Source of the DNA: Escherichia coli phage AZ21
Sequence record: LC788708.1
Direction: 5' to 3' (one strand)
DNA length: 64,000 nucleotides
Within the stretch, counting starts at the first letter, position 1, and each line of letters opens with the position of its first letter. Positions 6,191-43,272 of the stretch are shown here, one piece after another. Position numbers and translations under genes: made by a program. The notes below the pieces were generated by a model. It saw only the letters and a list, made by a program, of their open reading frames with translations. It made no database searches and was not told the DNA's origin.

Positions 6191-6195
6191 TTCAT

Positions 6196-6224: not shown

Positions 6225-6250
6225 ATATTTTATAAATTGGAGGTACACAT

Positions 6251-6508
6251 ATGGGACTCTTTAGAAAGAAAGTTTATTTAACAGAAGAGCAAGAACACAA
6301 ACTTCTTACTCTATCAGAATACTATCATTTACCATATGATTATTTTGTAGATAGAGCAATAGAGGAATTCTTAGATAGAGAATTAGAGGCTATAAAACCT
6401 AAGCCTCCTGAGCCGTCTTTAGCATCAAAGGGTCACCAAAGAGAATCCCCAAGAGTTCCGCCAATGCCCCCAATTCCACCAAAAACTAGAGTTGTAACAG
6501 AGTTGTAA
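6251..6508 (+). CDS. hypothetical early protein (85 aa, Pro-rich C-terminus)
   Basis: GGAGG RBS and its own promoter. Confidence 0.6.
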   Translation: MGLFRKKVYLTEEQEHKLLTLSEYYHLPYDYFVDRAIEEFLDRELEAIKPKPPEPSLASKGHQRESPRVPPMPPIPPKTRVVTEL

Positions 6509-6524
6509 TAGAAGGTAAAAAATA

Positions 6525-7004: not shown

Positions 7005-7021
7005 ATAAATTAAAAATTTTC

Positions 7022-7050
7022 TTGCTTAAAGCCCTCTAATTTAGTATAAT
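7022..7050 (+). promoter_or_regulatory. T5 early-type promoter
   Basis: TTGCTT, 17 nt, TATAAT. Confidence 0.7.
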
Positions 7051-7077
7051 ATTCGTATTGAAAGTGAGGAGGGATTT

Positions 7078-7356
7078 ATGCGAATTTATAACTCAAATTC
7101 ATTAGGATTTAAACCATTGAGAAAACGTGCACAATCACCTCGTCAAATAAGAAAGGCTAATATTGGTGAGCCAGAGACACGCCTTCCACCTCCTCCAGAA
7201 CAACGTTTAGTTTATCTGGACGAAGAATTAGCTGAACGCGAAAGAAAAGCTCAAGAAGAGATTGAGCGTAAGAAAATGTGTACTGCTCCAGCGTATAATA
7301 AAGGGGCGTATCAATACGTCTCAGATGCCGAACAAGCTAAGATGGTTGGTAGATAA
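7078..7356 (+). CDS. hypothetical early protein (92 aa)
   Basis: GAGGAGGG RBS and its own promoter. Confidence 0.6.
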   Translation: MRIYNSNSLGFKPLRKRAQSPRQIRKANIGEPETRLPPPPEQRLVYLDEELAERERKAQEEIERKKMCTAPAYNKGAYQYVSDAEQAKMVGR

Positions 7357-7372
7357 TTTTTAAAAAATTCAT

Positions 7373-7401
7373 TTGCTAAACGCTTCAAATTCTCGTATAA
7401 T
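7373..7401 (+). promoter_or_regulatory. T5 early-type promoter
   Basis: A-tract, TTGCTA, 17 nt, TATAAT, CATAAATTGA box. Confidence 0.75.
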
Positions 7402-7439
7402 ATACTTCATAAATTGATAAACAAAAAGGAAAACAAATA

Positions 7440-7955
7440 ATGGCTAAGCAGAAAAACGCAAAAACTCAAGCAGCTCCGGCAGTTAAAACTTTCCCGAAGA
7501 CTGAGGCTAATCGCAAAGCTCGGCTGGAACGTCACCTGCGTAAGCATCCTACAGATGCTCAGGCTGCGCAAGCACTGAATAATCCGGCTCCGATTCGTCA
7601 GAAGCCTAAAGCTAAAAATGCCACCCGTAAATCCTACAAAATGGTTATGTATGTAGAAAATTACGGCCACAAATCTGTCCCAGTTTCCCTGAGCTTTAAC
7701 GCTGGGGCTGAATTGTTCTCTCGTAATGGTATGTCTATGAAAGACTATGAGAAGGCAGTTAACCAGAAGCGTAAACCAACAGCAGATGTATTGCGCGATA
7801 CTCGTGGACAGTTTGGTTCTGTTAAGCCAAGTATCTTTGGCGTAGAGTATAGTAAAGATAATGTTCGTGCTCTGTGTTACGGTGTAGGTATTAAGTTCAC
7901 GGGTGATTCTGCTCGTAAATCTGCTAAACCAGCTCGCAAGCGTAAAGCGAAGTAA
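7440..7955 (+). CDS. basic Lys/Arg-rich early protein (171 aa)
   Basis: AAGGAA RBS. Lys/Arg-rich termini. Codon choice resembles the capsid gene. Confidence 0.65.
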   Translation: MAKQKNAKTQAAPAVKTFPKTEANRKARLERHLRKHPTDAQAAQALNNPAPIRQKPKAKNATRKSYKMVMYVENYGHKSVPVSLSFNAGAELFSRNGMSMKDYEKAVNQKRKPTADVLRDTRGQFGSVKPSIFGVEYSKDNVRALCYGVGIKFTGDSARKSAKPARKRKAK

Positions 7956-8019
7956 TAGATAAATAGGGGCGAAAGCCCCTACAATCGACTAATTCTCTAA
8001 CTAATCAAGGATATTTTTT

Positions 8020-8235
8020 ATGTTCTCTAAGAAACCACGTTCTGTTACTGAAATCGTTGCTTCCTTTACCACTATCACTGATGAGCTTCAAGCTCGTATT
8101 GAGGCTGATCAAAAAATCGCTGCTGATATTCAGAAACAGCAGGAAGAACTCGCTTTAAAGTTGGCTGAAACCAACAAGAGTGAAAAATCTGCCCAAACTA
8201 TTATGGAAAATATCCTTAAACTGCTGGGCAAGTGA
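8020..8235 (+). CDS. hypothetical coiled-coil protein (71 aa)
   Basis: AAGGA RBS. GC hairpins flank both sides (7965-7980 and about 8246-8263). Confidence 0.55.
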   Translation: MFSKKPRSVTEIVASFTTITDELQARIEADQKIAADIQKQQEELALKLAETNKSEKSAQTIMENILKLLGK

Positions 8236-8279
8236 TTTAAATCAGGGGGGGGCGAAAGCCCCTCTTATTTGGAGAAACT

Positions 8280-8516
8280 ATGCGTAATTTTGTAGCAAAG
8301 AATGATTTTAACCGTGCTAGCACTCATAAGTCCGCTAGAGATTATACACGACTTTCTAGTCATGAGGTAATGGATACCTGTTATGAAGAGCTGGAAGGTA
8401 GCTGGAATGAGTGTCCCGACTTCTCTATGGAAGAGAACTGGGATGTCAGTGAGGATATGCTTCCTGGTTTTAAAGACCCCAAGAAGTGGGAGTCTATTAA
8501 AGAGACAGCTCTTTAA
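8280..8516 (+). CDS. hypothetical acidic protein (78 aa)
   Basis: GGAG RBS. The antisense 88-aa ORF is judged a shadow. Confidence 0.55.
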   Translation: MRNFVAKNDFNRASTHKSARDYTRLSSHEVMDTCYEELEGSWNECPDFSMEENWDVSEDMLPGFKDPKKWESIKETAL

Positions 8517-8544
8517 TAGTTTTCTACACAATAAAGGATAAGTT

Positions 8545-9246
8545 ATGAAAGTAAAACCATTTGGTATGCTAGATATTGAATCTCTAGGAACTCCAGGAGA
8601 TTGTGGTACTACCCATATCGCAATGCCTTCATTCGCTTTTGTGGCTATGCATGGAATTGATAAAGACCCTGATCTAGTATTTGTTACTTTAGATGTACAA
8701 GATCAACTTAATTCTGGTGCCAAAGTTACAGCATCTACTCTAGCATTCTGGATGGATCAGGCTAAACATAGCCCGTCTGCTATCCACATTATGGAAGCTA
8801 TGAATGAGCGTAATCCAAAACTGGTTGCCTTCCAAAATGGTAAACATCATTGCACTAATAAACTTGGCTCTAACCATGCTGCCTTCTCTATGGCTCAAAA
8901 TATTATGGAGTTGGCTCTAGGCGAAAATGCTTTGTATTATGGCAATGGCCCAGAGTTTGATATGACTATCTACTCTGCAAACACTTTCCATGCTGGAACC
9001 AATGAAGAAATAGTTCCGTGGAAATTCTGGAACTTGGGTAATGTTAGATCTCTTCGTAATCTCTGGATGCAAACTGGCTATAGTTATAAAGCTCTAGAAA
9101 CCGAAGGTATTAGCTGGGCAATAGCTAAAATGGAGAAGATGGACACCATTCGTTATGGGATCTATCCGGTTAAGCACGACCCAGCATTCGATGCCCTAGT
9201 TGAGAGCTATTGTGTTGCAGCTATGATCGAAAAAATGAAAATTTGA
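8545..9246 (+). CDS. DEDDh-type 3'-5' exonuclease (Rv2179c-like fold suspected)
   Basis: N-terminal MLDIESLGTPG (Exo I) and C-terminal KHDPAFDAL (Exo III H-x4-D). Confidence 0.6.
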   Translation: MKVKPFGMLDIESLGTPGDCGTTHIAMPSFAFVAMHGIDKDPDLVFVTLDVQDQLNSGAKVTASTLAFWMDQAKHSPSAIHIMEAMNERNPKLVAFQNGKHHCTNKLGSNHAAFSMAQNIMELALGENALYYGNGPEFDMTIYSANTFHAGTNEEIVPWKFWNLGNVRSLRNLWMQTGYSYKALETEGISWAIAKMEKMDTIRYGIYPVKHDPAFDALVESYCVAAMIEKMKI

Positions 9247-9247
9247 T

Positions 9248-9276
9248 TTGCTTCCGGCTCCAAAATTCTGTATAAT
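9248..9276 (+). promoter_or_regulatory. T5 early-type promoter
   Basis: TTGCTT, 17 nt, TATAAT, CATAAATTTGAG box. Confidence 0.75.
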
Positions 9277-9316
9277 ATATTCATAAATTTGAGAAAACAA
9301 TAAAAGGAAAACAAAT

Positions 9317-9499
9317 ATGCCAGTATCTAAAAATGTTCGTAAAAATGGTAAGAAAGCTACTCGTAATCTGGGTATCCGTCGTATGGCTGAACGTCAATCA
9401 GGTATCCAGAAAATCTTTGATCTGCTAAATCGTGCTAATCCTAAAATTGATAACAGTAACGATACTGTTCTGCGCACCCTGCTGGCAATTGGTCTGTAA
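9317..9499 (+). CDS. small basic protein (60 aa)
   Basis: AAGGAA RBS and its own promoter. Highly basic N-terminus. Confidence 0.55.
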   Translation: MPVSKNVRKNGKKATRNLGIRRMAERQSGIQKIFDLLNRANPKIDNSNDTVLRTLLAIGL

Positions 9500-9552
9500 T
9501 AGACCAAATTTAAACAAATTCAAATCTCAAACTTCATATAAGGAAGCAAATA

Positions 9553-32884: not shown

Positions 32885-33774
32885 TGGGATTTTATAGTAA
32901 TAGAAAACCAAAAGGTGTAACTGGTAAATTCGCAGTTGAAGAAAGACCTTTTCCACCGGTCGATGTAGAGAAACTACGTGAACTTCTAGAAATGCTAGAA
33001 GGTTGCCATGAACGTTGTTATTCTGAACTCTCTTTAAATGAGAAACGTGTTGTTGAGATGTTCTGTATTCGTTCAGCTAGAACAGCTAAAGGTACTTCTC
33101 CAAAAGATGAAGTAAAAGAGTACAGAGTTCTAGTGATGCATGCTTGGGCACAACGTTTTGCAGTTCATTCGCTTCAGGAATGGTTTAATCTTCCAGCCTA
33201 TAAAGATTTTCATGTTTACGAAGATGAGGTTATGAATTATAATGAGTTGTATGGTTTGTCCTTCAAAAAGACAGGCTCACCGATGCATGATGCACTCAAT
33301 TCATTCCCTGATCATTACCTTCCAGTTCGTGAATATAGAGATCGTGAAGGAAATAAACCCTGCTTCACTATTTGGAATAAGTCTAAGACGATATCTGATC
33401 TAGATAATTATTGGTTTCGCACAAAAGAAGGATTCCTAGGAACAGAACCTTTACCTAAGGATCTCAAACCTATCCTTCCGCCTGCGAAACCTAAACATGA
33501 AGTAACGATTGCTATTAATAGAATAATTCTAGGAGCAGATGATCTTACTAAACAAATCGCCGCAGTTATCGCAGTTCTGTTTGACGGTACAAATTCTTCT
33601 GCACGTTATGAGAAGCTAACGGATAACAAATTGCAGATACCTAACGAGTTGTATGAGAGTTCGTGCAAGATCTATGATAACTTTAGTAAAGTAGATTACC
33701 CCGTGAGATCCATTAAAGAACTCATGGAGTATGCGGAGATGGGGATGAAAGGAAATCTCATGTTCGATGAATAA
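32884..33774 (+). CDS. hypothetical protein (296 aa), last gene of the early arm
   Basis: TAATG coupling. Long clean ORF. Confidence 0.7.
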   Translation: MGFYSNRKPKGVTGKFAVEERPFPPVDVEKLRELLEMLEGCHERCYSELSLNEKRVVEMFCIRSARTAKGTSPKDEVKEYRVLVMHAWAQRFAVHSLQEWFNLPAYKDFHVYEDEVMNYNELYGLSFKKTGSPMHDALNSFPDHYLPVREYRDREGNKPCFTIWNKSKTISDLDNYWFRTKEGFLGTEPLPKDLKPILPPAKPKHEVTIAINRIILGADDLTKQIAAVIAVLFDGTNSSARYEKLTDNKLQIPNELYESSCKIYDNFSKVDYPVRSIKELMEYAEMGMKGNLMFDE

Positions 33775-33781
33775 ACTCTAC

Positions 33782-33810
33782 TTGACGTTATGATTTCTGC
33801 ATGTTATAAT
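33782..33810 (+). promoter_or_regulatory. near-consensus sigma70 promoter reading into an ORF-free region
   Basis: TTGACG, 17 nt, TATAAT. Confidence 0.65.
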
Positions 33811-33817
33811 AACTCTA

Positions 33818-33990
33818 TGAAATAACATAGAATAAAGAGATCCACCCGGATACGGATGGTGGATGGGAAACTTCTATTTCCCCCGTAGCTTGTCGGAGGG
33901 CTAGGGAAATCTTAAGAAGTTTTGTACCATCTCACGCAATTCGTATCCCAGGGGTGGAGCATCTCTTCCAATCTTTGGGGATCTTATACT
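33818..33990 (+). ncRNA. candidate promoter-driven structured transcript
   Basis: No ORF. Local hairpins CTATG-aaataa-CATAG, TCCACC..GGTGGA and GGGAAA..TTTCCC. Long-range pairing CCACCCGGATACG / CGTATCCCAGGGGTGG. Confidence 0.3.
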
Positions 33991-34138
33991 TAAATTAAAG
34001 GTAAAACTTTTGGTCACATAATTTACATTCAAGATGATACACTGGTTGCCGCCATTCTTCCTAGGATGGCACAACACTTTCTTCTAGACTCCTAAGTTTC
34101 TAGGAATACTAACTCTAGAGTTTACACTAAACTTTGAA

Positions 34139-34876
34139 TCGGATTCGCACATGCTCTAGGGCAGTTTTTCATCTACTATAAATATCCTAGGCCGGTTTTC
34201 CTATACAGGGCGGTTATGGGGAGGGCGGTTATTTCTAGACAATAAAATTTACTCTTGTCAGTCCAGAAATTACTGTCGGATTTGCACATTGTGTTTCTAG
34301 AAATTTATGGTCGGATTTGCACAATTGCCTAAGTTTTTAGGAACATATAATCTCCTGAAAATGGCAGCATTATTTCGGGCCGAAGGCCCATGATTGCCTG
34401 AGTTTTTTTAGAGACACAGAAATTTTCACTTGTCAAGCTATTTTGCCCCATTTTGCTAATAAAATTTTACTTTATCTCCCCTAATCTCAAATTAACCCAA
34501 ATCTTCTCAACTCTTCTCCAAAATCCCCGCAAATCAGGTGCTCCGCACCAAACATGCGCCCCTCCCGTAGTTCCCCCAAGTTTCTCTCGATCTCTCAACT
34601 TCTCCCCAAACTCATACAATCACACACCCTCCAATCGAAGTCACAAAAATCTTGTCGGATTCGCACAAATAAACCCATGTCGGATTTGCACATATTCTAG
34701 TTAATTCCACAGGATTGATGCGCAGCATCGGATTGCTGGAGTTTTTGGGAGAATTCATTGTCGGATTCGCACACTATAAAAATTTTTCGGGTCGGATTTG
34801 CACACTACCAAAAATTGTCGGATTCGCACATACACGCCCACGCGTAATCCATGGGGGCAAATGTCGGATTTGCACA
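34139..34876 (+). repeat. array of nine direct 14-bp iterons GTCGGATT(T/C)GCACA
   Basis: Copies start at 34139 (lacks the first G), 34275, 34310, 34654, 34679, 34760, 34791, 34817 and 34863. All share one orientation. Confidence 0.9.
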
Positions 34877-34881
34877 AAAGC

Positions 34882-34899
34882 GCAGGGCAATTGCCCTGC
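34882..34899. repeat. perfect 18-bp palindrome GCAGGGCAATTGCCCTGC
   Basis: Read directly from the sequence. Confidence 0.9.
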
Positions 34900-34904
34900 T
34901 TGCC

Positions 34905-35100
34905 TGAATGCGAATGATAATGAGAATCATTTGCATTTAAAAAGCGGAATGAGAATGATAATAATTCGCATTTAAGAATGGAAGTGAGAATTATTCAGGA
35001 AGTGAAACGATTCTCATTTAAAAAGTGAAACGATTCTCATTTAGAAAGTGAAACGCGAATGATAATGATTCGTATTTAAGAATGGAAGTGAGAAACACTA
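34905..35100. promoter_or_regulatory. cluster of Fur-box-like imperfect palindromes and short tandem repeats
   Basis: 19-mers at 34916-34934 and 34951-34969 match GATAATGATAATCATTATC at 16/19 and 15/19 by hand. A 23-bp unit AGTGAAACGATTCTCATTTAAAA is tandem at 35001 and 35024. A ~40-bp direct repeat lies at 34947-34990 and 35054-35094. Confidence 0.6.
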
Positions 35101-35281
35101 TTATTTAAGTTATCCACAGACTTATCAACAGCACGATTTGACTTGACAGAATCCTAGCCATTTTGAGGCGTTATCAACAGACTTATCAACAGCTTATCCT
35201 ACTGTATAAATATACAGTATTCCTATGCAGTGAATAATTCTAATATACAGCTAAAACGCTCTCAAACGCATTCTAACGCGT
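35086..35281. repeat. left arm of a ~200-bp imperfect inverted repeat carrying DnaA-type boxes
   Basis: TTATCCACA at 35110. TTATCAACA at 35122, 35171 and 35183. Aligns with the reverse complement of 39128-39330. Confidence 0.85.
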
Positions 35282-35413
35282 TTAATTTTGGTGGGGATAC
35301 TAAAACAAGGGCAAAATTGGAGGAGGCTTGAAAATTAGTTAGCTCGCTAATGATCACACACGGCGACACGTAACACCCTAACCATTAGCAGGCTAACCAT
35401 CGCGGGCGTGGTC

Positions 35414-35434
35414 AAATGAGAATGATTCTCATTT
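35414..35434. repeat. perfect 21-bp palindrome AAATGAGAAT-G-ATTCTCATTT (Fur-box-like core)
   Basis: Read directly. The TGAGAATGATTCTCA core differs from TGATAATNATTATCA at one symmetric position pair. Confidence 0.85.
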
Positions 35435-35475
35435 GTGGATTGGGGGCGCTTCCTGATAGTTGCGCCCCGTGATTA

Positions 35476-35589
35476 TTATAGTAGGGGGCAACCGTTACGC
35501 TTTGCCCACTCCCGCCACTCATCTTGGTGCCTAGACTTGCGACGGCGTACTAAAAACCGCTTGTACCAGTGATTAAACCATCGTTTCAT
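35476..35589 (-). CDS. possible 37-aa basic Trp-rich peptide, last gene of the leftward cassette
   Basis: ATGA overlap with the upstream gene's stop. MKRWFNHWYKRFLVRRRK... Below the track cutoff. Confidence 0.35.
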   Translation of the reverse strand: MKRWFNHWYKRFLVRRRKSRHQDEWREWAKRNGCPLL

Positions 35590-35789
35590 AAATCCTCCTC
35601 CGGTAGTCGATGCGTGATCTTTTCCTCCTCCCCATAGGAATCCACCAAATACTGATAATAACCATCGTGATCATAAATCACTTTATCATATTCCCCACGC
35701 TCGACCGCTTGCCGATTTTCCAACGTATCAGGCACAAAGAAAGTATCAACGGTAACAGTAGTTTTAGTTACAACAATTTTATCACTCAT
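35586..35789 (-). CDS. pre-early-region hypothetical protein (67 aa)
   Basis: Co-directional cassette. AGGGG RBS region. Confidence 0.55.
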   Translation of the reverse strand: MSDKIVVTKTTVTVDTFFVPDTLENRQAVERGEYDKVIYDHDGYYQYLVDSYGEEEKITHRLPEEDL

Positions 35790-35809
35790 AATGCCATCGC
35801 CCCTAGAAT

Positions 35810-35828
35810 GAGAATGATTATCAATATC
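35810..35828. promoter_or_regulatory. Fur-box-like 19-mer GAGAATGATTATCAATATC
   Basis: 16/19 to the Fur consensus by hand. Lies in the intergenic gap of the leftward cassette. Confidence 0.45.
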
Positions 35829-35915
35829 ATTGTGAAGCCATTACCAAATCGTAAACGCTGGGAATGTTTCCCAGCGGTATTATTAGACTTATGGCTTTGT
35901 GTTTTTCGCCACCAG

Positions 35916-36116
35916 CTATTCACGGTAGACGCTCCATCCGTCTAGCTTCCATTCTTCCCCCTTGCGAATATTGAAAAACCAATCATTAAAATTGTAACCA
36001 TCTTCTGACATGATCACGCCGTTTTCTTTCATGTACAAAAATTCATCACTAGTAAAATATTGATTACTAACTTTAAAACCTTGTTTCATTTTTTCTAGTG
36101 CTTCATCTTTAGTCAT
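35916..36116 (-). CDS. small protein (66 aa) with DUF2829/Tad2-like N-terminal pattern (tentative)
   Basis: MTKDEALEKMKQGFKV... and a Trp-rich C-terminal part. ATGA coupling to the upstream gene. Confidence 0.55.
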   Translation of the reverse strand: MTKDEALEKMKQGFKVSNQYFTSDEFLYMKENGVIMSEDGYNFNDWFFNIRKGEEWKLDGWSVYRE

Positions 36117-36457
36117 TGCGCCACCTTTCGAAACGCTGTTTCAATACTATCCGCAGTGGATTGAATATATGCGCCTTTGAGTATCAGCCGCTCGGTGCAT
36201 ATCTTGCGAAAAATATTAATAAAATCGTCCTCATTTTCTGCGATTAATGCCTCACCCATAACCTGAACGTCGCAAGATGCAAAGGTCAAAAATTGAAACG
36301 CTAGTTCACGGGCAACGACCGCATTGATTTTATAATGCGCCTTGCCTTCATAGATATTAATAACGCCCTTATAAGCTGGCGAAAGCTGATTTAAGTAGTT
36401 TGCTAATAATGCCGGACGGCAATTAGCAACAAAACGATTGCCCTCATAAATAACCAT
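36113..36457 (-). CDS. hypothetical protein (114 aa)
   Basis: Co-directional cassette. Confidence 0.6.
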   Translation of the reverse strand: MVIYEGNRFVANCRPALLANYLNQLSPAYKGVINIYEGKAHYKINAVVARELAFQFLTFASCDVQVMGEALIAENEDDFINIFRKICTERLILKGAYIQSTADSIETAFRKVAQ

Positions 36458-36584
36458 TTGATAGTCTCCCGATTAGATAGCCAGATAATAACATAAAGAT
36501 CCCCAATAAAAGAGGATCATTCTTAAATAAGGTGGCGGTAAAACCGCCAACCATTGCAAGGAGAATAACAATAATGCTTTTCAT
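36444..36584 (-). CDS. possible 46-aa 2-TM peptide
   Basis: ATGA overlap with the upstream stop. MKSIIVILLAMVGGFTATLF...LLLGIFMLLSGYLIG. Below the track cutoff. Confidence 0.45.
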   Translation of the reverse strand: MKSIIVILLAMVGGFTATLFKNDPLLLGIFMLLSGYLIGRLSNGYL

Positions 36585-36793
36585 AGTACCCCACGAAACG
36601 CAGCGTAAAAGGTGGCAAAGTGTTTAACTGTTTCAGCAATCACGTTGCCGCGCTTATCAAATTTCTTTTCTGTAACACGAAAGGCATTTTTATTACGTGC
36701 TACATATTCGATTTTACAATCTTCCCGCTCGAACGTGTTAACATCCACCAGCTTAAAGCCTTTCGAACGTGCAAGAGAAACGTTGCGGATCAT
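36581..36793 (-). CDS. hypothetical basic protein (70 aa)
   Basis: AGGGGA RBS. Confidence 0.55.
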   Translation of the reverse strand: MIRNVSLARSKGFKLVDVNTFEREDCKIEYVARNKNAFRVTEKKFDKRGNVIAETVKHFATFYAAFRGVL

Positions 36794-36795
36794 TT

Positions 36796-36978
36796 TTATT
36801 CCCCTTTACTAGTCATGCAGCCCAGCAGATAAGAAAATACAGCGATGCCAGCACCAATAGTAACCATTGGTTTTATATTTACTAAACCGCAATAGGAATC
36901 CTGAATACCATAAGCGGTGGCGAAAAGAGTCAAAATAGCGCCCAAGATACCCGCTAAAATAGCTCGAAAAATAACCAT
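36796..36978 (-). CDS. 2-TM membrane protein (60 aa)
   Basis: GAGGAG RBS. Two hydrophobic helices. Confidence 0.55.
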   Translation of the reverse strand: MVIFRAILAGILGAILTLFATAYGIQDSYCGLVNIKPMVTIGAGIAVFSYLLGCMTSKGE

Positions 36979-37027
36979 TTGTAATACTCCTCTAGTTAGT
37001 GGGGCGAAAGTAACGCCCCGTTATTAA

Positions 37028-37258
37028 TTACATTAAAATAATTTTTGCCGCTTGTTTTTTGGTACAGTGTTCCGCTTTCAGGGTGTCCAGCAAAAAGCCC
37101 GCCGTTTGCTGATCGATTTTATCGGCATTATATAGTTCTTGGATGGTGTTATAAGTTTTAGCAATGCCGTATTCTTGTACCATTTCTTGAATAATCCAGC
37201 GATTTGATACCCAGCCTTTACCAGTGAAAAGAGCGTCAGAAGAAGAGTAAGCAACCAT
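37028..37258 (-). CDS. hypothetical protein (76 aa)
   Basis: ATG 37258 after a GGAGG RBS. The track start at 37291 lacks an RBS. Confidence 0.55.
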   Translation of the reverse strand: MVAYSSSDALFTGKGWVSNRWIIQEMVQEYGIAKTYNTIQELYNADKIDQQTAGFLLDTLKAEHCTKKQAAKIILM

Positions 37259-37321
37259 TTTAAGCCTCCAAATTTTTGGGAAAATTTTCAACCGTCCTCA
37301 AACGGTGTAAAGGCATTATAA

Positions 37322-37348
37322 CAAAAAAGGCCGCCATAAAAGGCGACC
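37322..37348 (-). terminator. rho-independent terminator (minus strand)
   Basis: GGTCGCC-ttttat-GGCGGCC followed by TTTTTT on the minus strand. Confidence 0.65.
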
Positions 37349-37364
37349 TTTACAAAACTTTACA

Positions 37365-37859
37365 TTAAACTACTTGTAAGGATTCAATATTGAAACATCG
37401 TTTCAGTTCGTCATGCAAAACGGCATATTCATCCCATCGGGTACTATCAGGAATATAAACAAGCTGTTTTAATCGGTTTGCATATATTACCGCTTTGTTA
37501 TCAATTATCTCGACGCCACCATATTTAATAATTAATTTCATGACGGAATTAATAGGATCGCCGCCGTTTACATATGCGCCGGATTTACTTAATTGATAAT
37601 GATAAAGGCTTGCATATACGTTTTCATTTTCATACCATTCGCCAGTCTCTTCGTCTTCATAGCCATCGCTACCAAAACGAGAAGCATTATCAACAGCCAT
37701 TTCATGAGCAAAAGCGTCCAGATCCGTACCAGCAGGAACAAAATATTCCTCGGTATTCCCTTCCCCGCAATAGCCAGTATGACAATCGACTAAAATGATC
37801 ATATCATGTTTAGCCTTGCTCACTTCCCCTAGCGAGAAGCCGTATTTTTCTTCTAACAT
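37365..37859 (-). CDS. hypothetical acidic protein (164 aa)
   Basis: ATG 37859 after AGGAGACTAATT. Confidence 0.65.
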   Translation of the reverse strand: MLEEKYGFSLGEVSKAKHDMIILVDCHTGYCGEGNTEEYFVPAGTDLDAFAHEMAVDNASRFGSDGYEDEETGEWYENENVYASLYHYQLSKSGAYVNGGDPINSVMKLIIKYGGVEIIDNKAVIYANRLKQLVYIPDSTRWDEYAVLHDELKRCFNIESLQVV

Positions 37860-37923
37860 AATTAGTCTCCTATTAATTAACAAGGAAATAGTAAAGCGGG
37901 GAAATAATCCCCGCTAGATATTA

Positions 37924-38157
37924 TTACTCGTTTTCGGTGTTAGTGGTAAAAGTAGAGATATCGATACCTTTTACCATTTCATCGATCATCTCAGCGATGT
38001 TAAAACTTTGCACCATTTCTAACATTGCCGCTTCCATAGCCGCCCCTGCTACCGCTTTCGCTTTCTGATTAGTCGGGGCGTACTGGTCAACCGCTACACT
38101 CAGCAGGTTAGCGATCACTACACGACCAATCGGCGTATCAATATAGCCTTTGATCAT
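37924..38157 (-). CDS. 77-aa ORF, probably the C-terminal part of the upstream gene
   Basis: Open in the +1 frame relative to 38138-38929. No RBS of its own. Confidence 0.5.
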   Translation of the reverse strand: MIKGYIDTPIGRVVIANLLSVAVDQYAPTNQKAKAVAGAAMEAAMLEMVQSFNIAEMIDEMVKGIDISTFTTNTENE

Positions 38158-38929
38158 AAACGGTGCTTTTTTTAGCCGCTACTTTCGTGATTTGAGTTAG
38201 TGCAATTTTACCAGCTTCCAGTTTTGCAGCGTTTACAACAGCGGATTTATTAGCGGCAACGATATTAGCGATCTTGGTCATGGTATTTTTTCCTTTGTTT
38301 TCAGTAGTTTGAGTATTAACGCTTTGAGTGTTAGAGCTTACAACCTGTTTTTCAATATTGTCAACTGGTTTTAGTGTAAATCCAGCATTTGCAACGTTTG
38401 ATTCATTCCCATACTCTAAATAATCACTAGGGATCAACATGTTGCCACTAGCGCGTTCAAAACATAACACGCCAGTTGTAGAAATTACATTACTATCAGC
38501 ACTTTTGTAATTAGCTGATAGTTCACGCCAAATGCTAGTTAATAACGATCCGACACTATCAGTCCTGATATTACTTACTTTTGTTGCTGTTACTTGCTCT
38601 TTTTCTTGCACGTTATATAATCGCGCAATGTAACCACTATTAGATTCACTATAACCAACAATGATAAAATCAATATCTCTTCCACGTTGATTGCGGAAAA
38701 TGTGATAATCACGGTTGAAAATTACTAGCGCCCTTTTCTGGTCTAGTAATTGTGTGAAATCTTCAACTGAATAATGAGTACCCTCATCGTCTAAAATTCT
38801 ATCATGAATCTTTTCGATAATAGTAGCGGTATGCTGTACGCTTGCCGCGCTACTACCCTCTAACAGATTGCGCAAACTGCCTTTAATAATAGTGGCGTTT
38901 GCTGGTACTGCAATTCTTACAGTAGACAT
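38138..38929 (-). CDS. first gene of the leftward cassette (263 aa as written)
   Basis: GGGAG RBS. Ends 27 nt after an A7 run at 38167-38173. Confidence 0.65.
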   Translation of the reverse strand: MSTVRIAVPANATIIKGSLRNLLEGSSAASVQHTATIIEKIHDRILDDEGTHYSVEDFTQLLDQKRALVIFNRDYHIFRNQRGRDIDFIIVGYSESNSGYIARLYNVQEKEQVTATKVSNIRTDSVGSLLTSIWRELSANYKSADSNVISTTGVLCFERASGNMLIPSDYLEYGNESNVANAGFTLKPVDNIEKQVVSSNTQSVNTQTTENKGKNTMTKIANIVAANKSAVVNAAKLEAGKIALTQITKVAAKKSTVYDQRLY

Positions 38930-38961
38930 TTTATTTTGTCTCCCTCGTTAATCGGTGAGTG

Positions 38962-38991
38962 AATGATAAGGGTAATTTTCTAGCATAGGCA
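38962..38991 (-). promoter_or_regulatory. candidate promoter of the leftward cassette
   Basis: On the minus strand: A-tract, TTGCCT, 18 nt, TATCAT. Confidence 0.4.
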
Positions 38992-39127
38992 AATATTATT
39001 TTACTTTTTTATTTTCCTTGCCTAGCGTCTAATTTTATGCTAACCGCGCAGCGGTGCAATAAAGAGCAAACCACGGCGAAGCCACCAGCCCGACGCATTG
39101 AGGCTTTACTTTAATATTACCTTACAG

Positions 39128-39330
39128 CGTTTAGCTCGTTAGAATGCGTTTTGGGCCACTTAAAATTGATTGCAGTTGTTAACACTACCTTTCTACCCTG
39201 TATATTTATACAGTGGAATAACCTGTGGATAAGTCTGTGCAAAAGTCCTTATATCACCGCCTATCGTGTCAAGTTATTTTGTGCTGTGGAAAACATTGTG
39301 GATAACTTAAATGATAGTGCTTCTCACTTA
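39128..39330. repeat. right arm of the ~200-bp imperfect inverted repeat with DnaA-type boxes
   Basis: TGTGGATAA at 39224 and 39297. TGTGGAAAA at 39285. The shared core CTGTATAAATATACAG is also present. Confidence 0.85.
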
Positions 39331-39554
39331 GGCTAATGATTTCTTATAGTTATTATTTCTCATTAATTTATAAGTATATTATATATTATCAAATAGTTAG
39401 TTGGCTAATGAGATTTTCCGTGATTAATAGTCTGCTAATAATTCAGGTCGTTACAATCCACCAGCATGATTATCATTCTAGCAATTATTAGTCTGCTATC
39501 TTTCCGATACATACTAACAAATAAAAGTCAATTAATTTATTTCATAAAATAAGT

Positions 39555-39591
39555 AGTTATCCACTGGAAAATAAAAGTCAAGTGGATAACT
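39555..39591. repeat. palindrome of two inverted DnaA-like boxes
   Basis: AGTTATCCACT - 15 nt - AGTGGATAACT. A further TTATCAACA lies at 39624. Confidence 0.8.
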
Positions 39592-40034
39592 AGGAAAATT
39601 TCATTTTTGCTTTTGGGGATAAGTTATCAACAAGGCTAGAATGCGCCTAAAACGCTCCAGAACGCGATGAAGTTTTTAGCCACCCCATCATAAGGGGATA
39701 GGCCGTTTATCGCTGCCACGAGCTTTTTAGATTTTGTCAAGTAGGGGAAAGCAAATATAAATGAAAAAATTACTTGCCTATTTGCTTTATTTTGTGGTAT
39801 TCGCGCCCGTTTCTTTTAATTTTAGGCCGTCGCCGGACGTGGTGCGGTGAATTTTGTCTTTACGTTTCTTTACAAAAATAAGGTTGCGCCATTTTCGGGA
39901 ATCCCCTATTATTTATCACGTAGGGCGGCAATGACGAACTACACGGCGGGAAGTTTACCGCCACGCTCTTTAAAAATTGGGTACATCTTAAAGCCTATCG
40001 GCGGTAAACTTATTTATTATAAGGAATCGACGAT

Positions 40035-40247
40035 ATGAAACAAACTTTATTGATCACTGGCAAGCCTATTAAGGCACTAGATAGCAAAACAAAAAATTTG
40101 TTGACAGTAGCGCAAAGATCGGTAAAATACCGATTCACGCAGTACAAGAAAGACCGCCAGCAAGGTTTAGAAATGATCTGGCGAAACATTATGATTGACT
40201 TGAAAGAAAATCATAAAAAACTGCAAAAAAATTATTTGACAACCTAG
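40035..40247 (+). CDS. doubtful 70-aa basic ORF inside the bracketed segment
   Basis: AAGGAAT RBS-like sequence, but the segment contains several -35/-10-like elements. Confidence 0.3.
   Translation: MKQTLLITGKPIKALDSKTKNLLTVAQRSVKYRFTQYKKDRQQGLEMIWRNIMIDLKENHKKLQKNYLTT
40101..40128 (+). promoter_or_regulatory. candidate pre-early promoter
   Basis: TTGACA, 16 nt, TAAAAT. Confidence 0.45.
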
Positions 40248-40264
40248 CCGATAGGTTTTAAGAT
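40236..40264 (+). promoter_or_regulatory. candidate pre-early promoter of the A2-A1-dmp operon
   Basis: TTGACA, 17 nt, TAAGAT. Confidence 0.55.
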
Positions 40265-40391
40265 GTACCCAGTTCGATAAGAGCGATAACTTGATAAAAT
40301 TTGACGGTCGGTGCTTACCATAATGCGCCCCGCCCCCTAACGGGATATAGCGGCCTACGTGGAGTTCTTTAAATTGATTATAGCGGCGAGA

Positions 40392-40445
40392 GGATTGTTA
40401 CTTATTACCTGCTAGTATTTTCTAGTAGGTAATAAGTAACAATCC
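40392..40445. repeat. 54-nt near-perfect palindrome (24-bp stem, 6-nt loop)
   Basis: GGATTGTTACTTATTACCTGCTAG-tatttt-CTAGTAGGTAATAAGTAACAATCC. Lies just upstream of the first operon RBS. Confidence 0.9.
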
Positions 40446-40468
40446 ATCAAATAACTGGAGTTTATATT

Positions 40469-40720
40469 ATGCAAAACGTTATTACCGCGCCTAAAATTGG
40501 TCAATCCGTCTTTATTCCTTTCGTTACTAAAACGGATGAATTAACCGGAAAGGCCGAACGTATTAAAGGTGCGGCGCTTATGCCGTTCGATACAATCGAC
40601 GCGGTATATGCTGAAAATGAACGCAGTAACAACGGCAAGCCCGTTTTTAGCGTTCGCGTTAAATCCGGCGATGTTGTAAAGGTTGTTCAACGCAACGAAA
40701 AATGGGAAGCTGTGTTGTAA
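40469..40720 (+). CDS. pre-early hypothetical protein (83 aa)
   Basis: CTGGAG RBS. Followed by a hairpin at 40734-40763. Confidence 0.65.
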   Translation: MQNVITAPKIGQSVFIPFVTKTDELTGKAERIKGAALMPFDTIDAVYAENERSNNGKPVFSVRVKSGDVVKVVQRNEKWEAVL

Positions 40721-40818
40721 TTTAGTGTTAACTTTATATCCCCCTTATTTCAGGGGGATATAACGATTAACATTAAGTTAATCTAATCCCTTAAATTAAA
40801 CTAATAGGAGTTTTTACC

Positions 40819-41226
40819 ATGACTAACGCAAAAACCGCAAAATTCGCATGGAATGAAGAAAACACTCAGAAAGCTGTTACCATGTACCAGCAGTTAATCA
40901 ACGAAAACGGTTTAGATTTTGCAAATAGCGACGGCCTGAAAGAGATTGCAAAAGCAGTAGGCGCGGCCTCCCCCGTATCCGTTCGGTCAAAATTGACCAG
41001 TGCAAAAGCCTATCAAAAAAGCGATAAGCCGCGTAAAGTTGGCGGCGGTAGCTCTGTGCGTAAAGCTCACTATGTGCGAGTAATTGCAAAACACGCTATC
41101 GATTCCGGTATTATCAAAGACGCCGATGATCTGGCAAGCCTTGAAAGTGCTAAACTGGAAACGCTGGACGCGGTGGCGCAACTGTTAGGCGTTGCCGATG
41201 AAGTAAAACAAGCCGTAGGTGAATAA
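40819..41226 (+). CDS. A2: pre-early protein A2
   Basis: 135 aa. Size, position just upstream of A1 and recalled sequence character match T5 A2. Confidence 0.75.
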   Translation: MTNAKTAKFAWNEENTQKAVTMYQQLINENGLDFANSDGLKEIAKAVGAASPVSVRSKLTSAKAYQKSDKPRKVGGGSSVRKAHYVRVIAKHAIDSGIIKDADDLASLESAKLETLDAVAQLLGVADEVKQAVGE

Positions 41227-41316
41227 TAGTTATACCTTGCCCCCTTCTAGTGAGGGGGCACTAATATAACTGTTTAGCGATAGTTATTTTCTTCCCTTAA
41301 ATCAGGAGTTTTAAAA

Positions 41317-41514
41317 ATGGTTTTCTTCCCTACTGAATCTTTGATTCTAGGCTTGTTTATTATGGCGGCCTCATTATTGTTCGCTTATTTTCAGAATGAT
41401 TTAGATTCGTATTATTTTAAACGTAAATCTAAATTAGCAAAACGTTTGGGCTTGCTTTGTTTTATCGCTGCCGTTGCCTGTGGTGTTAGTTCGAGTCTAG
41501 TACCATTAAATTAA
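41317..41514 (+). CDS. pre-early 2-TM membrane protein (65 aa)
   Basis: CAGGAG RBS. Two hydrophobic helices. Confidence 0.6.
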   Translation: MVFFPTESLILGLFIMAASLLFAYFQNDLDSYYFKRKSKLAKRLGLLCFIAAVACGVSSSLVPLN

Positions 41515-41601
41515 TGTTGCAAATTATAACGCCTATTATTCGAGGCGTTATATTTGGCAATATTGCCATTATTAACCTAATCCCTTTAATGGAGTTTTAT
41601 T

Positions 41602-43272
41602 ATGATTATTTCCGCAGAAAAACAAACCGTTATCCTGAAAATGGCCGCTGATTTCAATTTCTACGGTAAACGCCTGCGCGCCACTAAACTGGAGGTCTGC
41701 GACGATATTTCAAAAGCGGTCTACGATACAACGAAACACTCCACCGCTATCTGCGACTGGCTGGAAGCAAATAAACCAGCGAAACCAAAAGCGGCAAAAG
41801 TAGCAAAAGCCATTAAAAACGGTGAGCGCCCCGAAGCGGCTGGGATTGTTTCTAGTACCGTGGAGCAGTGGGAAGTAAAACAAGGTAAACGCTTTATTAT
41901 TACATCGATTCAGAATAATACTTTCCCGCATAAAAACTTTTTAGCCTCACTGGAGCAATTTGCTAAATATATCGGGGCTGATTTGCTCGTTTCTAAGTAT
42001 ATTTATAATAAAAACGGTTTTCAAAATGGGGAAGGTGCTGACGGAATCAAATATGATTCCGCGTTTGATAAATATATTTGCAGCAAAAACGTGTTTTTGA
42101 ATAACCGCCGCTTTGCTTTCATGGCTGAAATTAATGTTTTGCCTACCGCAGATTATCCGCTTTCTGGATTCGCAGAAACTGCAACGGCTTTAAATATTGA
42201 AGGTCTGGCAATTGGTCACGCTAAAATTACCGCTGAAAGCGTACCAGCTTTAAAAGGTGAAGTAGTGCGCCGTATGTACTCAACCGGAACGGCAACGCTC
42301 AAAAACTACATTCAGCAGAAAGCAGGACAAAAGGCCGAGGCGCTGCATAACTTCGGTGCGCTTATTGTTGAGTTCGACGAGGACGGGGAATTTTTTGTAC
42401 GCCAGCTTGAAACGATGGACGAAAGCGGGGTATTTTATGATCTGAATGTGTGTGCTACTCCTGCCGGATGCTATGAAACATCGGGGCATGTTTTAGGCTT
42501 GCAGTATGGCGATATTCACGCCGAAAAATTAGATGAGGAGTGCGCCGCCGCGTCATGGGGGCATGGTGATACTTATGGGCTAGTAGATATTCTTAAACCA
42601 AAATATCAGTTTGTGCATGACGTGCATGATTTTACATCGCGCAATCATCATAACCGCGCATCGGGTGTATTCCTAGCAAAACAGTACGCCGCCGGACGTG
42701 ATAAGGTTATTGATGATCTTATCGATACGGGGCGCGTGCTGGAATCAATGGAGCGTGATTTTTCTCAAACAATCATTGTTGAATCGAATCACGATTTGGC
42801 GTTATCCCGTTGGCTTGATGATCGTAATGCTAACATCAAAGACGATCCAGCAAACGCAGAACTGTATCACCGCCTGAATGCTGCAATTTACGAGGCAATC
42901 GGTGAACATGACGAAACGTTCAACGTGCTAGATTATGCGCTGCGCAAGGTTGCAGGTTGTGAGTTTAACGCCATTTTCCTGACCACTGACCAATCTTTCA
43001 AGATTGCAGGCATTGAATGCGGCGTACACGGTCACAACGGCATTAATGGCAGTCGTGGCAATCCCAAACAATTTAAGAAATTGGGCAAGTTAAACACTGG
43101 TCATACTCATACGGCAAGCATTTACGGCGGGGTATATACCGCTGGCGTAGCTGGTAGTCTGGATATGGGTTACAACGTTGGCGCGTCAAGCTGGACGCAA
43201 ACTCATTTAATTACCTATGCAAACGGTCAGCGCACTTTGATTGACTTTAAGAACGGTAAATTTTTTGCGTAA
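41602..43272 (+). CDS. A1: pre-early protein A1 (metallophosphoesterase-type nuclease motifs)
   Basis: 556 aa, the T5 A1 length by recall. C-terminal half has GDIHAEK, VESNHD, GVHGHNG and TGHTH motifs of calcineurin-like/Mre11-type phosphoesterases. Confidence 0.8.
   Translation: MIISAEKQTVILKMAADFNFYGKRLRATKLEVCDDISKAVYDTTKHSTAICDWLEANKPAKPKAAKVAKAIKNGERPEAAGIVSSTVEQWEVKQGKRFIITSIQNNTFPHKNFLASLEQFAKYIGADLLVSKYIYNKNGFQNGEGADGIKYDSAFDKYICSKNVFLNNRRFAFMAEINVLPTADYPLSGFAETATALNIEGLAIGHAKITAESVPALKGEVVRRMYSTGTATLKNYIQQKAGQKAEALHNFGALIVEFDEDGEFFVRQLETMDESGVFYDLNVCATPAGCYETSGHVLGLQYGDIHAEKLDEECAAASWGHGDTYGLVDILKPKYQFVHDVHDFTSRNHHNRASGVFLAKQYAAGRDKVIDDLIDTGRVLESMERDFSQTIIVESNHDLALSRWLDDRNANIKDDPANAELYHRLNAAIYEAIGEHDETFNVLDYALRKVAGCEFNAIFLTTDQSFKIAGIECGVHGHNGINGSRGNPKQFKKLGKLNTGHTHTASIYGGVYTAGVAGSLDMGYNVGASSWTQTHLITYANGQRTLIDFKNGKFFA

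What the first reader, a model, noticed from the sequence alone, without database searches (positions are those of the whole stretch)
35086..39330. About 200-bp imperfect inverted repeats loaded with DnaA-type boxes bracket a 4-kb cassette of small leftward genes
- **The repeat:** 35086-35281 aligns with the reverse complement of 39128-39330. Shared blocks are AAGTGAGAA(A/G)CACTAT, TTTAAGTTATCCACA, ACTTGACA, CAGACTTATC(A/C)ACAG, CTGTATAAATATACAG and AAACGCATTCTAACG.
- **DnaA boxes:** each arm carries 3-4 nonamers matching or one off the consensus TTATCCACA. These lie at 35110, 35122, 35171 and 35183 in one arm, and at 39224, 39285 and 39297 in the other.
- **Contents:** the arms enclose all leftward pre-early-region genes (35476-38929) plus their promoter.
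- **Possible consequences:** such geometry could form a stem-loop or cruciform in single-stranded or supercoiled DNA, load or sequester DnaA symmetrically on both sides, or mark a module exchanged or inverted as a unit.
- **No recombinase:** none is encoded inside.
Basis: partly seen in the sequence, partly recalled or inferred. Interest (0 to 1): 0.7.

Follow-up and report, generated by a model that had tools for sequence, protein, structure and literature searches.

The report
Known T5 inverted repeats flanking pre-early operon
The two ~130-bp inverted repeats are real, but they are the already described IRC/IRD repeats of phage T5's first-injected DNA. I add that each arm also carries a near-perfect LexA (SOS) box, and that the flanked operon has flipped in one phage genus.

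Summary
**Observation: confirmed.**
- The window is a T5-like phage, 100% identical to E. coli phage AZ23.
- Core arms are 35086-35217 and 39198-39329 (132 nt, 76% identical). The alignment score is 108, against a maximum of 32 in shuffles.
- Each arm carries four DnaA-type boxes.

**Novelty: already known.**
- These are T5's IRD'-spacer-IRC' (injection-stop side) and IRC-spacer-IRD repeats.
- Their eight DnaA boxes were compared across 25 T5-like phages by Davison (bioRxiv 10.1101/866236).

**What the comparison of 30 distinct relatives shows:**
- Both arms are always present, with fixed length.
- They lie 1.6-4.1 kb apart.
- They show no concerted evolution and no covariation. They therefore behave as duplex protein-binding arrays, not as a hairpin or cruciform.

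**What I add:**
1. Each arm ends in a LexA-type box (19/20 and 16/20 matches to TACTG(TA)5CAGTA). Providencia and Vibrio T5-like phages keep such boxes next to consensus DnaA boxes. No held paper mentions this.
2. In Sugarlandvirus the whole operon between the arms is inverted, with both inner flanks swapped.
3. Primer mapping shows a published viable T5 deletion removes the A2-side arm and the cassette. The pair is therefore dispensable.

DnaA and LexA binding, and any role in the injection stop, remain untested.

The parts
35086..35217 (+). Core arm on the injection-stop (iss) side. It equals T5 IRD'-spacer-IRC' of Repeat Region 3, read in reverse orientation in this window.
   Evidence: Orthologous arms are 90% identical on average across 30 genomes.
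39198..39329 (-). Core arm on the A2 side. It equals T5 IRC-spacer-IRD of Repeat Region 2. In T5 it lies between the divergent pre-early promoters.
   Evidence: Orthologues are 84% identical on average.
35110..35130 (+). DnaA-type box pair: TTATCCACA, 3 nt, TTATCAACA.
   Evidence: Alignment columns 25 and 37 are conserved.
35171..35191 (+). DnaA-type box pair: TTATCAACA, 3 nt, TTATCAACA. Both boxes are one mismatch from the consensus, at position 6.
   Evidence: Alignment columns 87 and 99.
39224..39244 (-). DnaA box pair: TTATCCACA, 3 nt, TTTTGCACA. Both fit the strict consensus.
39285..39305 (-). DnaA box pair: TTTTCCACA, 3 nt, TTATCCACA. Both fit the strict consensus.
35200..35219 (.). LexA-type (SOS) box TACTGTATAAATATACAGTA at the cassette-proximal end of the iss-side arm. 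It matches the consensus at 19 of 20 positions.
   Evidence: It is kept at 18-19/20 in 30 of 30 genomes. The consensus is taken from PMC6015884.
39196..39215 (.). LexA-type box CCCTGTATATTTATACAGTG at the cassette-proximal end of the A2-side arm. It matches the consensus at 16 of 20 positions.
   Evidence: The CTG-N10-CAG core is kept in 26 of 30 genomes.
35264..35285 (.). Inner-flank block AAACGCATTCTAACGCGTTTAA, inverted copy of 39130-39151. Its motif family, (C/G)TTAGAATGCG / TAAAACGCTC, is unassigned.
   Evidence: Related motifs occur in Vibrio phages.
39130..39151 (.). Inner-flank block TTTAGCTCGTTAGAATGCGTTT, partner of 35264-35285.
35586..38929 (-). Pre-early operon (the 'cassette'). 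It holds homologues of T5.011 (DUF7566, split here into two ORFs), T5.012 to T5.015 and T5.017, plus extra small ORFs. No recombinase family was found.
34139..35094 (+). Context: iss repeat region just outside the iss-side arm. It holds nine TCGGATTYGCACA (DRD) repeats and the AATGAGAATGAT-type repeats.
   Evidence: The region is described as Repeat Region 3 of T5.

Best explanation
**Identity.** These are the known IRD'-spacer-IRC' and IRC-spacer-IRD inverted repeats of the T5-type terminal repeat, the DNA that enters the cell first.

**What each arm is.** Each arm is a fixed-geometry array of sites that match host DNA-binding proteins.
- It holds two tandem pairs of DnaA-type boxes. The boxes of a pair are 3 bp apart and the pairs are 62 bp apart.
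- At the cassette-proximal end it holds one near-consensus LexA box.

**How the arms work (inferred).** They act as double-stranded protein landing pads, not by pairing with each other.

**Which arm matters.**
- The arm next to the injection-stop repeats is the primary element. It is universal and better conserved.
- The second arm lies next to the operon's promoter, between T5's divergent pre-early promoters. It is an accessory, dispensable copy.

**Consequence of the geometry.** Because the copies are inverted, recombination between them can flip the operon they flank. This has happened in Sugarlandvirus. The interval is also a hot spot of gene turnover.

**Shown:** anatomy, conservation, lack of covariation, the inversion, and dispensability of the A2-side arm.
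**Inferred:** that DnaA and LexA bind, and that binding serves the injection pause or pre-early control.
For: - **Identity:** the window is 100% identical to phage AZ23 and about 92% identical to T5-like phages. It aligns to T5 Repeat Regions 2 and 3. The description matches Davison.
- **Statistics:** score 108 against a maximum of 32. Five of 11 strict DnaA sites in the window fall inside the arms.
- **Conservation:** there are 30 distinct arm pairs and only one indel column in 133. The four box positions are conserved in both arms.
- **Orthologues beat paralogues:** orthologous arms are 90% and 84% identical, against 75% between the two arms of one genome. Within-genome and cross-genome identity are equal. 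No compensatory excess is seen.
- **Motif composition survives sequence divergence:**
  - Vibrio phage D332 has 5 TTATCCACA sites against 0.18 expected.
  - Vibrio phage phi 3 has 2 against 0.12 expected.
  - In PR1, D332 and phi 3 the boxes sit beside a CTGTAT-N4-ATACAG box.
- **LexA box:** 19/20 matches, kept at 18-19/20 in 30 of 30 iss-side arms. The pattern occurs in 44 of 46 loci, at or beside the arm or module positions wherever those were mapped.
- **Inversion:**
  - Sug014 matches T5.011 (E = 3e-54), Sug012 matches the 172-aa ORF (E = 4e-23), and Sug011 matches T5.015 (E = 4e-8).
  - These genes keep the same operon order but on the opposite strand.
  - The inner flanks are swapped, with z = 19.
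- **Dispensability:** the T5 deletion runs from about 5391 to 9160. It removes the A2-side arm (6097-6228) and keeps the iss-side arm. The phage is viable.
Against: - No binding data exist. Papers from 2023 and 2026 say functional tests of these repeats are lacking.
- In this phage three of the four iss-side boxes are TTATCAACA. They deviate at position 6 of the DnaA consensus and may bind weakly.
- Box pairs are 3 bp apart. From memory, oriC arrays use 2 bp.
- The LexA boxes do not clearly overlap a conserved promoter.
- Proteins binding DNA that is already inside the cell do not obviously stop further entry.
- The function of the A2-side copy is unexplained, since it can be deleted.
Confidence: 0.6

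Rival explanations
1. The conserved motifs are recognised by phage proteins rather than by host DnaA or LexA. One version is binding by the A2 DNA-binding protein. Another is cleavage by A1/A2 at the palindromes, as in Davison's restriction-type model for restarting transfer.
For: - A1 and A2 are the only essential pre-early genes and are needed for second-step transfer.
- Davison proposes cleavage at palindromes of this region.
- Other conserved blocks in the arms (AGTGAGAA, ATTTAAG, TTGACA) and the TTAGAATGCG-type motifs in the inner flanks match no host consensus that I know.
Against: - The motifs equal the host consensus sequences exactly: TTATCCACA, and 19/20 of TACTG(TA)5CAGTA.
- They stay exact in Vibrio and Providencia phages. 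The Vibrio A2 proteins are only about 36-43% identical to this one, and the surrounding DNA of Vibrio phage D332 is not alignable.
- A phage-specific site would be expected to drift along with its protein.
Confidence: 0.15
2. The pairing is incidental. Only the iss-side arm works, and the A2-side arm is a decaying duplicate kept by its position between promoters.
For: - The A2-side arm is less conserved (84% against 90%).
- Its LexA core is broken in 4 of 30 genomes.
- Its outer 35 nt are missing in Sugarland.
- PR1 has no second module.
- It is deleted in a viable T5 mutant.
Against: - The second module is kept across most Demerecviridae sampled.
- Vibrio phage D332 has a non-alignable module with the same composition at the promoter side. 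That argues for selection rather than decay.
- The deletion mutant makes smaller plaques.
Confidence: 0.15
3. The arms base-pair with each other or form a knot. This could be a stem-loop in single-stranded DNA, a cruciform, or Davison's 'Gordian knot', and it would physically block DNA transfer.
For: - The arms are 132 nt long and 76% complementary.
- Davison suggests a knot involving both repeats.
Against: - No covariation is seen. There are 36 compensatory cells against 28.4 +/- 5.1 in shuffles, and 44 of 500 shuffles reach the observed value.
- Within-genome and cross-genome complementarity are equal.
- The distance between arms varies from 1.6 to 4.1 kb.
- One arm can be deleted and has no counterpart in PR1.
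Confidence: 0.04
4. It is a programmed invertible switch that flips the operon within a phage population.
For: - Inverted repeats flank a complete transcription unit.
- Both orientations exist in nature: T5-type and Sugarland-type.
Against: - No recombinase family is found in the cassette.
- The arms are only 76% identical, with no homogenisation.
- Orientation is fixed within clades. There are 61 records colinear with the window and 65 colinear with Sugarland.
Confidence: 0.03

Closest known systems
T5 terminal-repeat inverted repeats IRC-spacer-IRD (Repeat Region 2) and IRD'-spacer-IRC' (Repeat Region 3, the injection stop signal region). The nomenclature is that of Wang et al., and Davison analysed them in bioRxiv 10.1101/866236.
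   Same: - Same locus and the same ~131-132-bp arms.
- Same eight DnaA/DnaA* boxes in pairs 3 bp apart.
- Same fixed internal spacing and the same variable arm-to-arm distance.
   Different: Nothing essential differs. This phage has a different cassette content, including an extra 172-aa ORF and a split T5.011 homologue. Three of its four iss-side boxes are TTATCAACA.
E. coli uvrB promoter / DARS1 region, where DnaA boxes and LexA boxes are interleaved (PMC6015884).
   Same: DnaA boxes and a LexA box sit side by side in a short non-coding stretch next to promoters.
   Different: There is no sequence homology to any E. coli genome. The box number, order and spacing differ. A DnaA-reactivating or regulatory activity is untested here.
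DnaA-box clusters oriC and datA.
   Same: Several same-orientation DnaA boxes are closely and regularly spaced, and some fit the strict consensus.
   Different: - Spacing is 3 bp rather than 2 bp (the oriC value is from memory).
- No unwinding element was examined.
- T5 replication origins map near the genome centre according to Davison.
Invertible segments bounded by inverted repeats (Mu G, P1 C, Salmonella Hin).
   Same: Inverted repeats bracket a gene block that is found in both orientations.
   Different: - No recombinase is found, and the repeats are long and diverged.
- The two orientations are fixed in different genera, not switching within one genome.

Membership tests
T5-type LTR repeats IRC-spacer-IRD / IRD'-spacer-IRC' | Located in the first-step-transfer DNA of a T5-like phage. 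One arm lies beside the iss repeats and the other lies upstream of the 011-017 operon. | tested here: met
T5-type LTR repeats IRC-spacer-IRD / IRD'-spacer-IRC' | Arms of about 131 bp with the same order of sub-blocks and a constant internal spacing. | tested here: met
   The arms are 132 nt. Sixty arms align in 133 columns with one indel column.
T5-type LTR repeats IRC-spacer-IRD / IRD'-spacer-IRC' | Eight DnaA/DnaA* boxes, in pairs separated by 3 bp. | tested here: met
Host DnaA-binding box cluster | Nonamers fitting TT(A/T)TNCACA, clustered beyond chance and conserved. | tested here: met
   - Five of eight boxes are strict; the other three are one mismatch off.
- Five of the window's 11 strict sites lie in 264 nt.
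- The box positions are conserved.
- Distant phages are enriched.
Host DnaA-binding box cluster | DnaA protein binds the sites. | not testable with these tools
   This needs EMSA, footprinting or ChIP. The literature says it is untested.
Host DnaA-binding box cluster | oriC-like array geometry, with 2-bp gaps between nonamers. | tested here: not met
   The gaps are 3 bp. The oriC value is recalled from memory.
LexA (SOS) operator | A CTG-N10-CAG core with an AT-rich spacer, close to TACTG(TA)5CAGTA. | tested here: met
   - The boxes match at 19/20 and 16/20, and both spacers are 10/10 A or T.
- Only 3 CTGT-N8-ACAG sites occur in 64 kb, and two are these.
- The consensus comes from PMC6015884.
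LexA (SOS) operator | Conserved across relatives whose hosts share the LexA motif. | tested here: met
LexA (SOS) operator | Overlaps or abuts the promoter it represses. | tested here: inconclusive
   Outward-facing promoter-like hexamers lie at or near both boxes. The -35 element is not conserved in T5.
LexA (SOS) operator | LexA protein binds the site. | not testable with these tools
   This needs EMSA or ChIP.
Site-specific invertible segment | A dedicated recombinase is encoded in or next to the segment. | tested here: not met
   Pfam and PHROGs scans of 10 cassette proteins found none.
Site-specific invertible segment | Both orientations coexist within one population. | not testable with these tools
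   Only between-genus orientation differences were seen.
Composite transposon / IS element | A transposase gene and target-site duplications outside the terminal inverted repeats. | tested here: not met
   No transposase family was found. The bases outside the arms (AATGG and AGGCT) are not a direct repeat.

The most novel reading that the evidence does not exclude
All Demerecviridae carry a conserved landing pad at the boundary of their first-injected DNA. It combines a high-affinity LexA box with consensus DnaA boxes.

Binding of these two host regulators could couple the injection pause, its release, or pre-early transcription to the host's replication and SOS state. For example, A1-driven host DNA breakdown could lead to LexA cleavage.

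The LexA component and the Sugarlandvirus operon inversion are not mentioned in any paper I could search.
Probability: 0.25. Interest if true: 0.75.

Novelty: already known. Interest (0 to 1): 0.35.

Why it matters
Why T5 stops injecting after 8% of its genome has been an open question for decades. The repeats and DnaA boxes at the stop site are the main published lead, and they are still untested.

This analysis narrows what the repeats can be doing.
- They are not pairing with each other.
- The pair is not required.
- The iss-side arm is the conserved core.

It also adds a second host factor, LexA, that can be tested with standard reagents (EMSA, lexA(Def) and lexA(Ind-) hosts).

The operon inversion shows that these repeats also shape how the pre-early host-takeover gene set evolves.

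Tried and rejected
- **Chimeric-arm test for the Sugarland crossover point.** Only 9 discriminating columns were available, so it was inconclusive.
- **Second related-loci run with an A2 alignment.** It returned the same 40 loci. Distant genera were fetched from the phage collection instead.
- **LexA boxes as operators of outward-facing promoters.** Promoter-like hexamers exist, but the -35 is not conserved in T5. Not claimed.
- **Host origin of the arm.** No match was found in 5,426 E. coli genomes.
- **Known RNA families in 33000-42000.** None were found.
- **Davison's 2015 review.** It could not be fetched by DOI or by the PMC id I guessed. I cannot exclude that it mentions LexA or the inversion.
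- **Transposon and invertase readings.** Both were rejected, because no enzyme is found, there is no target duplication, and the arms are not homogenised.

Full report
**What the window is.**
- The region 34000-40000 is 100% identical to Escherichia coli phage AZ23. It is about 81-93% identical to many T5-like phages.
- Records written in T5 map orientation match on the minus strand. The window therefore runs opposite to the T5 map.
- In T5 (NC_005859) the first 10,219 bp are the left terminal repeat, the first-step-transfer DNA.
- That repeat contains:
  - the leftward dmp-A1-A2 operon;
  - divergent promoters;
  - the rightward operon T5.011-T5.017;
  - a non-coding 'injection stop signal' (iss).
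- In the window, A1 is 41602-43272 and A2 is 40819-41226. The minus-strand ORFs 35586-38929 are the T5.011-017 homologues.

**Checking the observation.**
- The repeat finder reports three colinear inverted blocks.
- A gapped local alignment joins the first two into a 132-nt core, 35086-35217 against the reverse complement of 39198-39329. It has 104 matches in 136 columns (76%).
- The score is 108. The maximum was 32 in 500 shuffles and 30 in about 1000 random pairs from the window.
- An eighth box, TTTTGCACA at 39236, fits the strict consensus TT(A/T)TNCACA.
- Window-wide, the strict consensus is not enriched (11 sites against 8.5 expected). However, 5 of the 11 sites lie in the 264 nt of the arms.

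**It is already described.**
- Davison's preprint (10.1101/866236) describes T5 Repeat Region 2 with IRC-spacer-IRD (131 bp). This is the inverted repeat of IRD'-spacer-IRC' in Repeat Region 3, the candidate iss.
- He reports eight DnaA/DnaA* boxes 'always in pairs separated by 3 bp', a constant 52-bp spacer, and a highly variable distance between the repeats.
- He compared 25 T5-like phages. He credits the first DnaA-box observation to a 1987 paper.
- My alignment of both window arms with the T5 regions confirms the correspondence.
- A 2023 paper and a 2026 paper state that functional tests of these repeats and boxes are still lacking.

**Behaviour across relatives.**
- Using A2 as anchor I obtained 40 loci. 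Together with T5 and the window itself they give 30 distinct arm pairs.
- Both arms are present in all 30 pairs, in the same relative orientation.
- Sixty arms align in 133 columns with a single indel column.
- The distance between arms ranges from 1590 to 4060 bp.
- Orthologous arms are much more alike than the two arms of one genome:

| Comparison | Mean identity |
|---|---|
| iss-side arm, between genomes | 90% |
| A2-side arm, between genomes | 84% |
| Two arms of one genome | 75.3% |
| Two arms of different genomes | 75.0% |

- The permutation p-value for within-genome against cross-genome identity is 0.08.
- A direct covariation count finds 36 compensatory cells, against 28.4 +/- 5.1 under genome-label shuffles. 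44 of 500 shuffles reach the observed value.
- So nothing selects for arm-arm complementarity, and no gene conversion keeps the arms alike.
- What is conserved in both arms is a set of blocks at fixed positions:
  - four DnaA-type boxes (alignment columns 25, 37, 87, 99);
  - AGTGAGAA, ATTTAAG and TTGACA;
  - a terminal palindrome.
- This is the signature of duplex protein-binding sites, not of a hairpin or cruciform.

**A LexA-type box in each arm.**
- The terminal palindrome is TACTGTATAAATATACAGTA (35200-35219). It matches the LexA-box consensus TACTG(TA)5CAGTA at 19 of 20 positions. The consensus is quoted in PMC6015884.
- The A2-side copy, CCCTGTATATTTATACAGTG (39196-39215), matches at 16 of 20 positions.
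- The 64-kb window has only three CTGT-N8-ACAG sites, against 0.84 expected. Two of them are these.
- The iss-side box is kept at 18-19/20 with an intact CTG-N10-CAG core in all 30 genomes.
- The A2-side box is weaker (mostly 16-17/20), and its core is broken in 4 genomes.
- CTGTAT-N4-ATACAG occurs in 44 of 46 fetched loci. Wherever arm or module positions were mapped, nearly all sites fall at them; the third D332 site lies beyond its promoter-side module.
- Davison's text does not contain 'LexA' or 'SOS'.
- Three full-text searches found no paper linking LexA with T5-like phages.
- I could not read the 1987 paper or Davison's 2015 review. Priority therefore cannot be excluded.

**Deep conservation of composition, not sequence.** I fetched distant Demerecviridae.
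- Providencia phage PR1 has, on the iss side only, a CTGTATATCTATACAG box followed by two TGTGGATAA boxes 4 bp apart.
- Vibrio phage phi 3 has two TTATCCACA boxes, each beside a CTGTATATTTATACA(G/T) palindrome. A 34-nt inverted repeat that includes this palindrome brackets its cassette.
- Vibrio phage D332 has a module on each side of its cassette: 5681-5775 and 8785-8928.
  - Each module has a CTGTATATCCATACAG box and two or three perfect TTATCCACA boxes.
  - The two modules are not alignable as an inverted repeat.
- TTATCCACA occurs 5 times in the D332 locus against 0.18 expected (0 of 200 shuffles reach it). It occurs twice in phi 3 against 0.12 expected.
- The Vibrio A2 proteins are only about 36-43% identical to the window's A2.
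- Keeping the exact host consensus motifs over this distance argues for host DnaA and LexA as the ligands. This is an inference, and binding is untested.

**The cassette is a module and has been inverted.**
- In 27 relatives the cassette is colinear with the window.
- In Klebsiella phages Sugarland and IME260 all genes between the arms read in the same direction as A2. A strong terminator lies next to the A2-side arm.
- Davison described this as the region being 'missing and replaced by other nucleotide sequences' read in the opposite direction.
- Protein comparison shows homology in conserved operon order:
  - Sug014 is a full-length T5.011 homologue (36.5% over 334 aa, E = 3e-54).
  - Sug012 matches the window's 172-aa ORF (E = 4e-23).
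  - Sug011 matches T5.015 (E = 4e-8).
- The inner flanks moved with the genes.
  - Window 35218-35304 (terminator side) matches the reverse complement of Sugarland's A2-side flank (score 64, z = 19).
  - The consensus strings of both flanks are swapped.
- The breakpoints therefore lie within the arms, as expected for recombination between inverted repeats.
- The divergent arrangement is shared by Vibrio, Providencia, Yersinia and E. coli phages. The Sugarland state is therefore the derived one.
- At least 65 records are colinear with Sugarland and 61 with the window.
- No recombinase or transposase family is found in the cassette. This looks like a rare evolutionary event, not a switch.

**Experimental constraint from the literature.**
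- A 2026 preprint (10.64898/2026.04.02.716235) built a T5 mutant deleted 'from hegG to 017' in addition to the left-half deletions of dmp-003, 005 and 007. The mutant is viable and makes smaller plaques.
- I mapped its primers on NC_005859. The homology arms are 5052-5390 and 9161-9497.
- About 5391-9160 is therefore removed. This takes out the A2-side arm (6097-6228) and the whole cassette. The iss-side arm (9411-9542) remains.
- So the paired geometry is not needed for productive infection.

**Interpretation.**
- The finding is real, but it is a rediscovery of a published structure.
- The best-supported reading is a pair of host-factor binding arrays (DnaA-type boxes plus a LexA box). The iss-side arm is the core element and the A2-side arm is an accessory copy.
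- Their inverted arrangement has allowed an operon flip.
- How such a complex would contribute to the injection pause is not established.
  - Proteins bound to DNA already inside the cell do not obviously stop entry.
  - Three of the four iss-side boxes in this phage deviate at position 6 of the consensus.
- Davison's membrane-DnaA tether model remains a hypothesis.
- A LexA link to A1-driven host DNA breakdown is my speculation.

**Other checks.**
- No Rfam family was found in 33000-42000.
- No similarity of the arm to any E. coli genome was found.

Noticed in passing
window 37924-38929 (minus strand): The T5.011 homologue (Pfam DUF7566, 336 aa in T5) is split into two overlapping ORFs of 263 aa (38138-38929) and 77 aa (37924-38157). 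Together they cover profile positions 1-257 and 260-336. This could be a frameshift, a pseudogene or a sequencing error.
   Followed up: partly
window 34139-34877; L044 5700-6000: The nine DRD repeats TCGGATT(T/C)GCACA contain ATTTGCACA, one mismatch from the DnaA consensus. Vibrio cholerae phage phi 3 has an equivalent array, TCGGTTTTGCACCTATA, including one perfect TTTTGCACA, at the same place beside its terminal-repeat end. The iss repeats may be weak DnaA-type sites.
   Followed up: partly
window 39557-39632: Four further near-consensus DnaA-like nonamers lie about 230-300 bp beyond the A2-side arm. Two TTATCCACT boxes face each other (39557 plus strand, 39581 minus strand). TTATCCCCA and TTATCAACA sit back to back (39614 minus, 39624 plus).
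   Followed up: no
window 35233-35285, 39130-39151, 39629-39665; L043 7826-7851, 8727-8754, 9037-9062; L045 5259-5320: An unassigned motif family, TAAAACGCTC... / (C/G)TTAGAAT(G/C)GC, recurs in the inner flanks of the arms and in Repeat Region 1. It also recurs in Vibrio and Yersinia T5-like phages. It matches no consensus that I know.
   Followed up: no
window 39964-40002 / 40247-40285, and 40392-40445: A second inverted repeat (39 nt, 85%) brackets the 70-aa ORF 40035-40247. A near-perfect 24-nt-arm palindrome with a 6-nt loop lies just downstream. PR1 has a similar 27-nt inverted repeat around its gene PR1_7.
   Followed up: no
window 35916-36116 (minus strand): The 66-aa cassette ORF gives a weak Pfam hit to the Thoeris anti-defence Tad2-like domain (E = 0.005, 17.8 bits, below the 25-bit cut-off).
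   Followed up: no
L045 (Yersinia phage phiR201) 8926-9162: The iss-side arm has a duplicated inner part, with two LexA-type boxes at 8926 and 9027. This agrees with Davison's note of an IRD' duplication.
   Followed up: partly
L044 (Vibrio phage phi 3) 6030-6160: Four tandem copies of a 34-bp unit (AGCTAATTTAGCCTTACCTTTATTAGTTCT) lie between the DRD-like array and the DnaA/LexA module.
   Followed up: no
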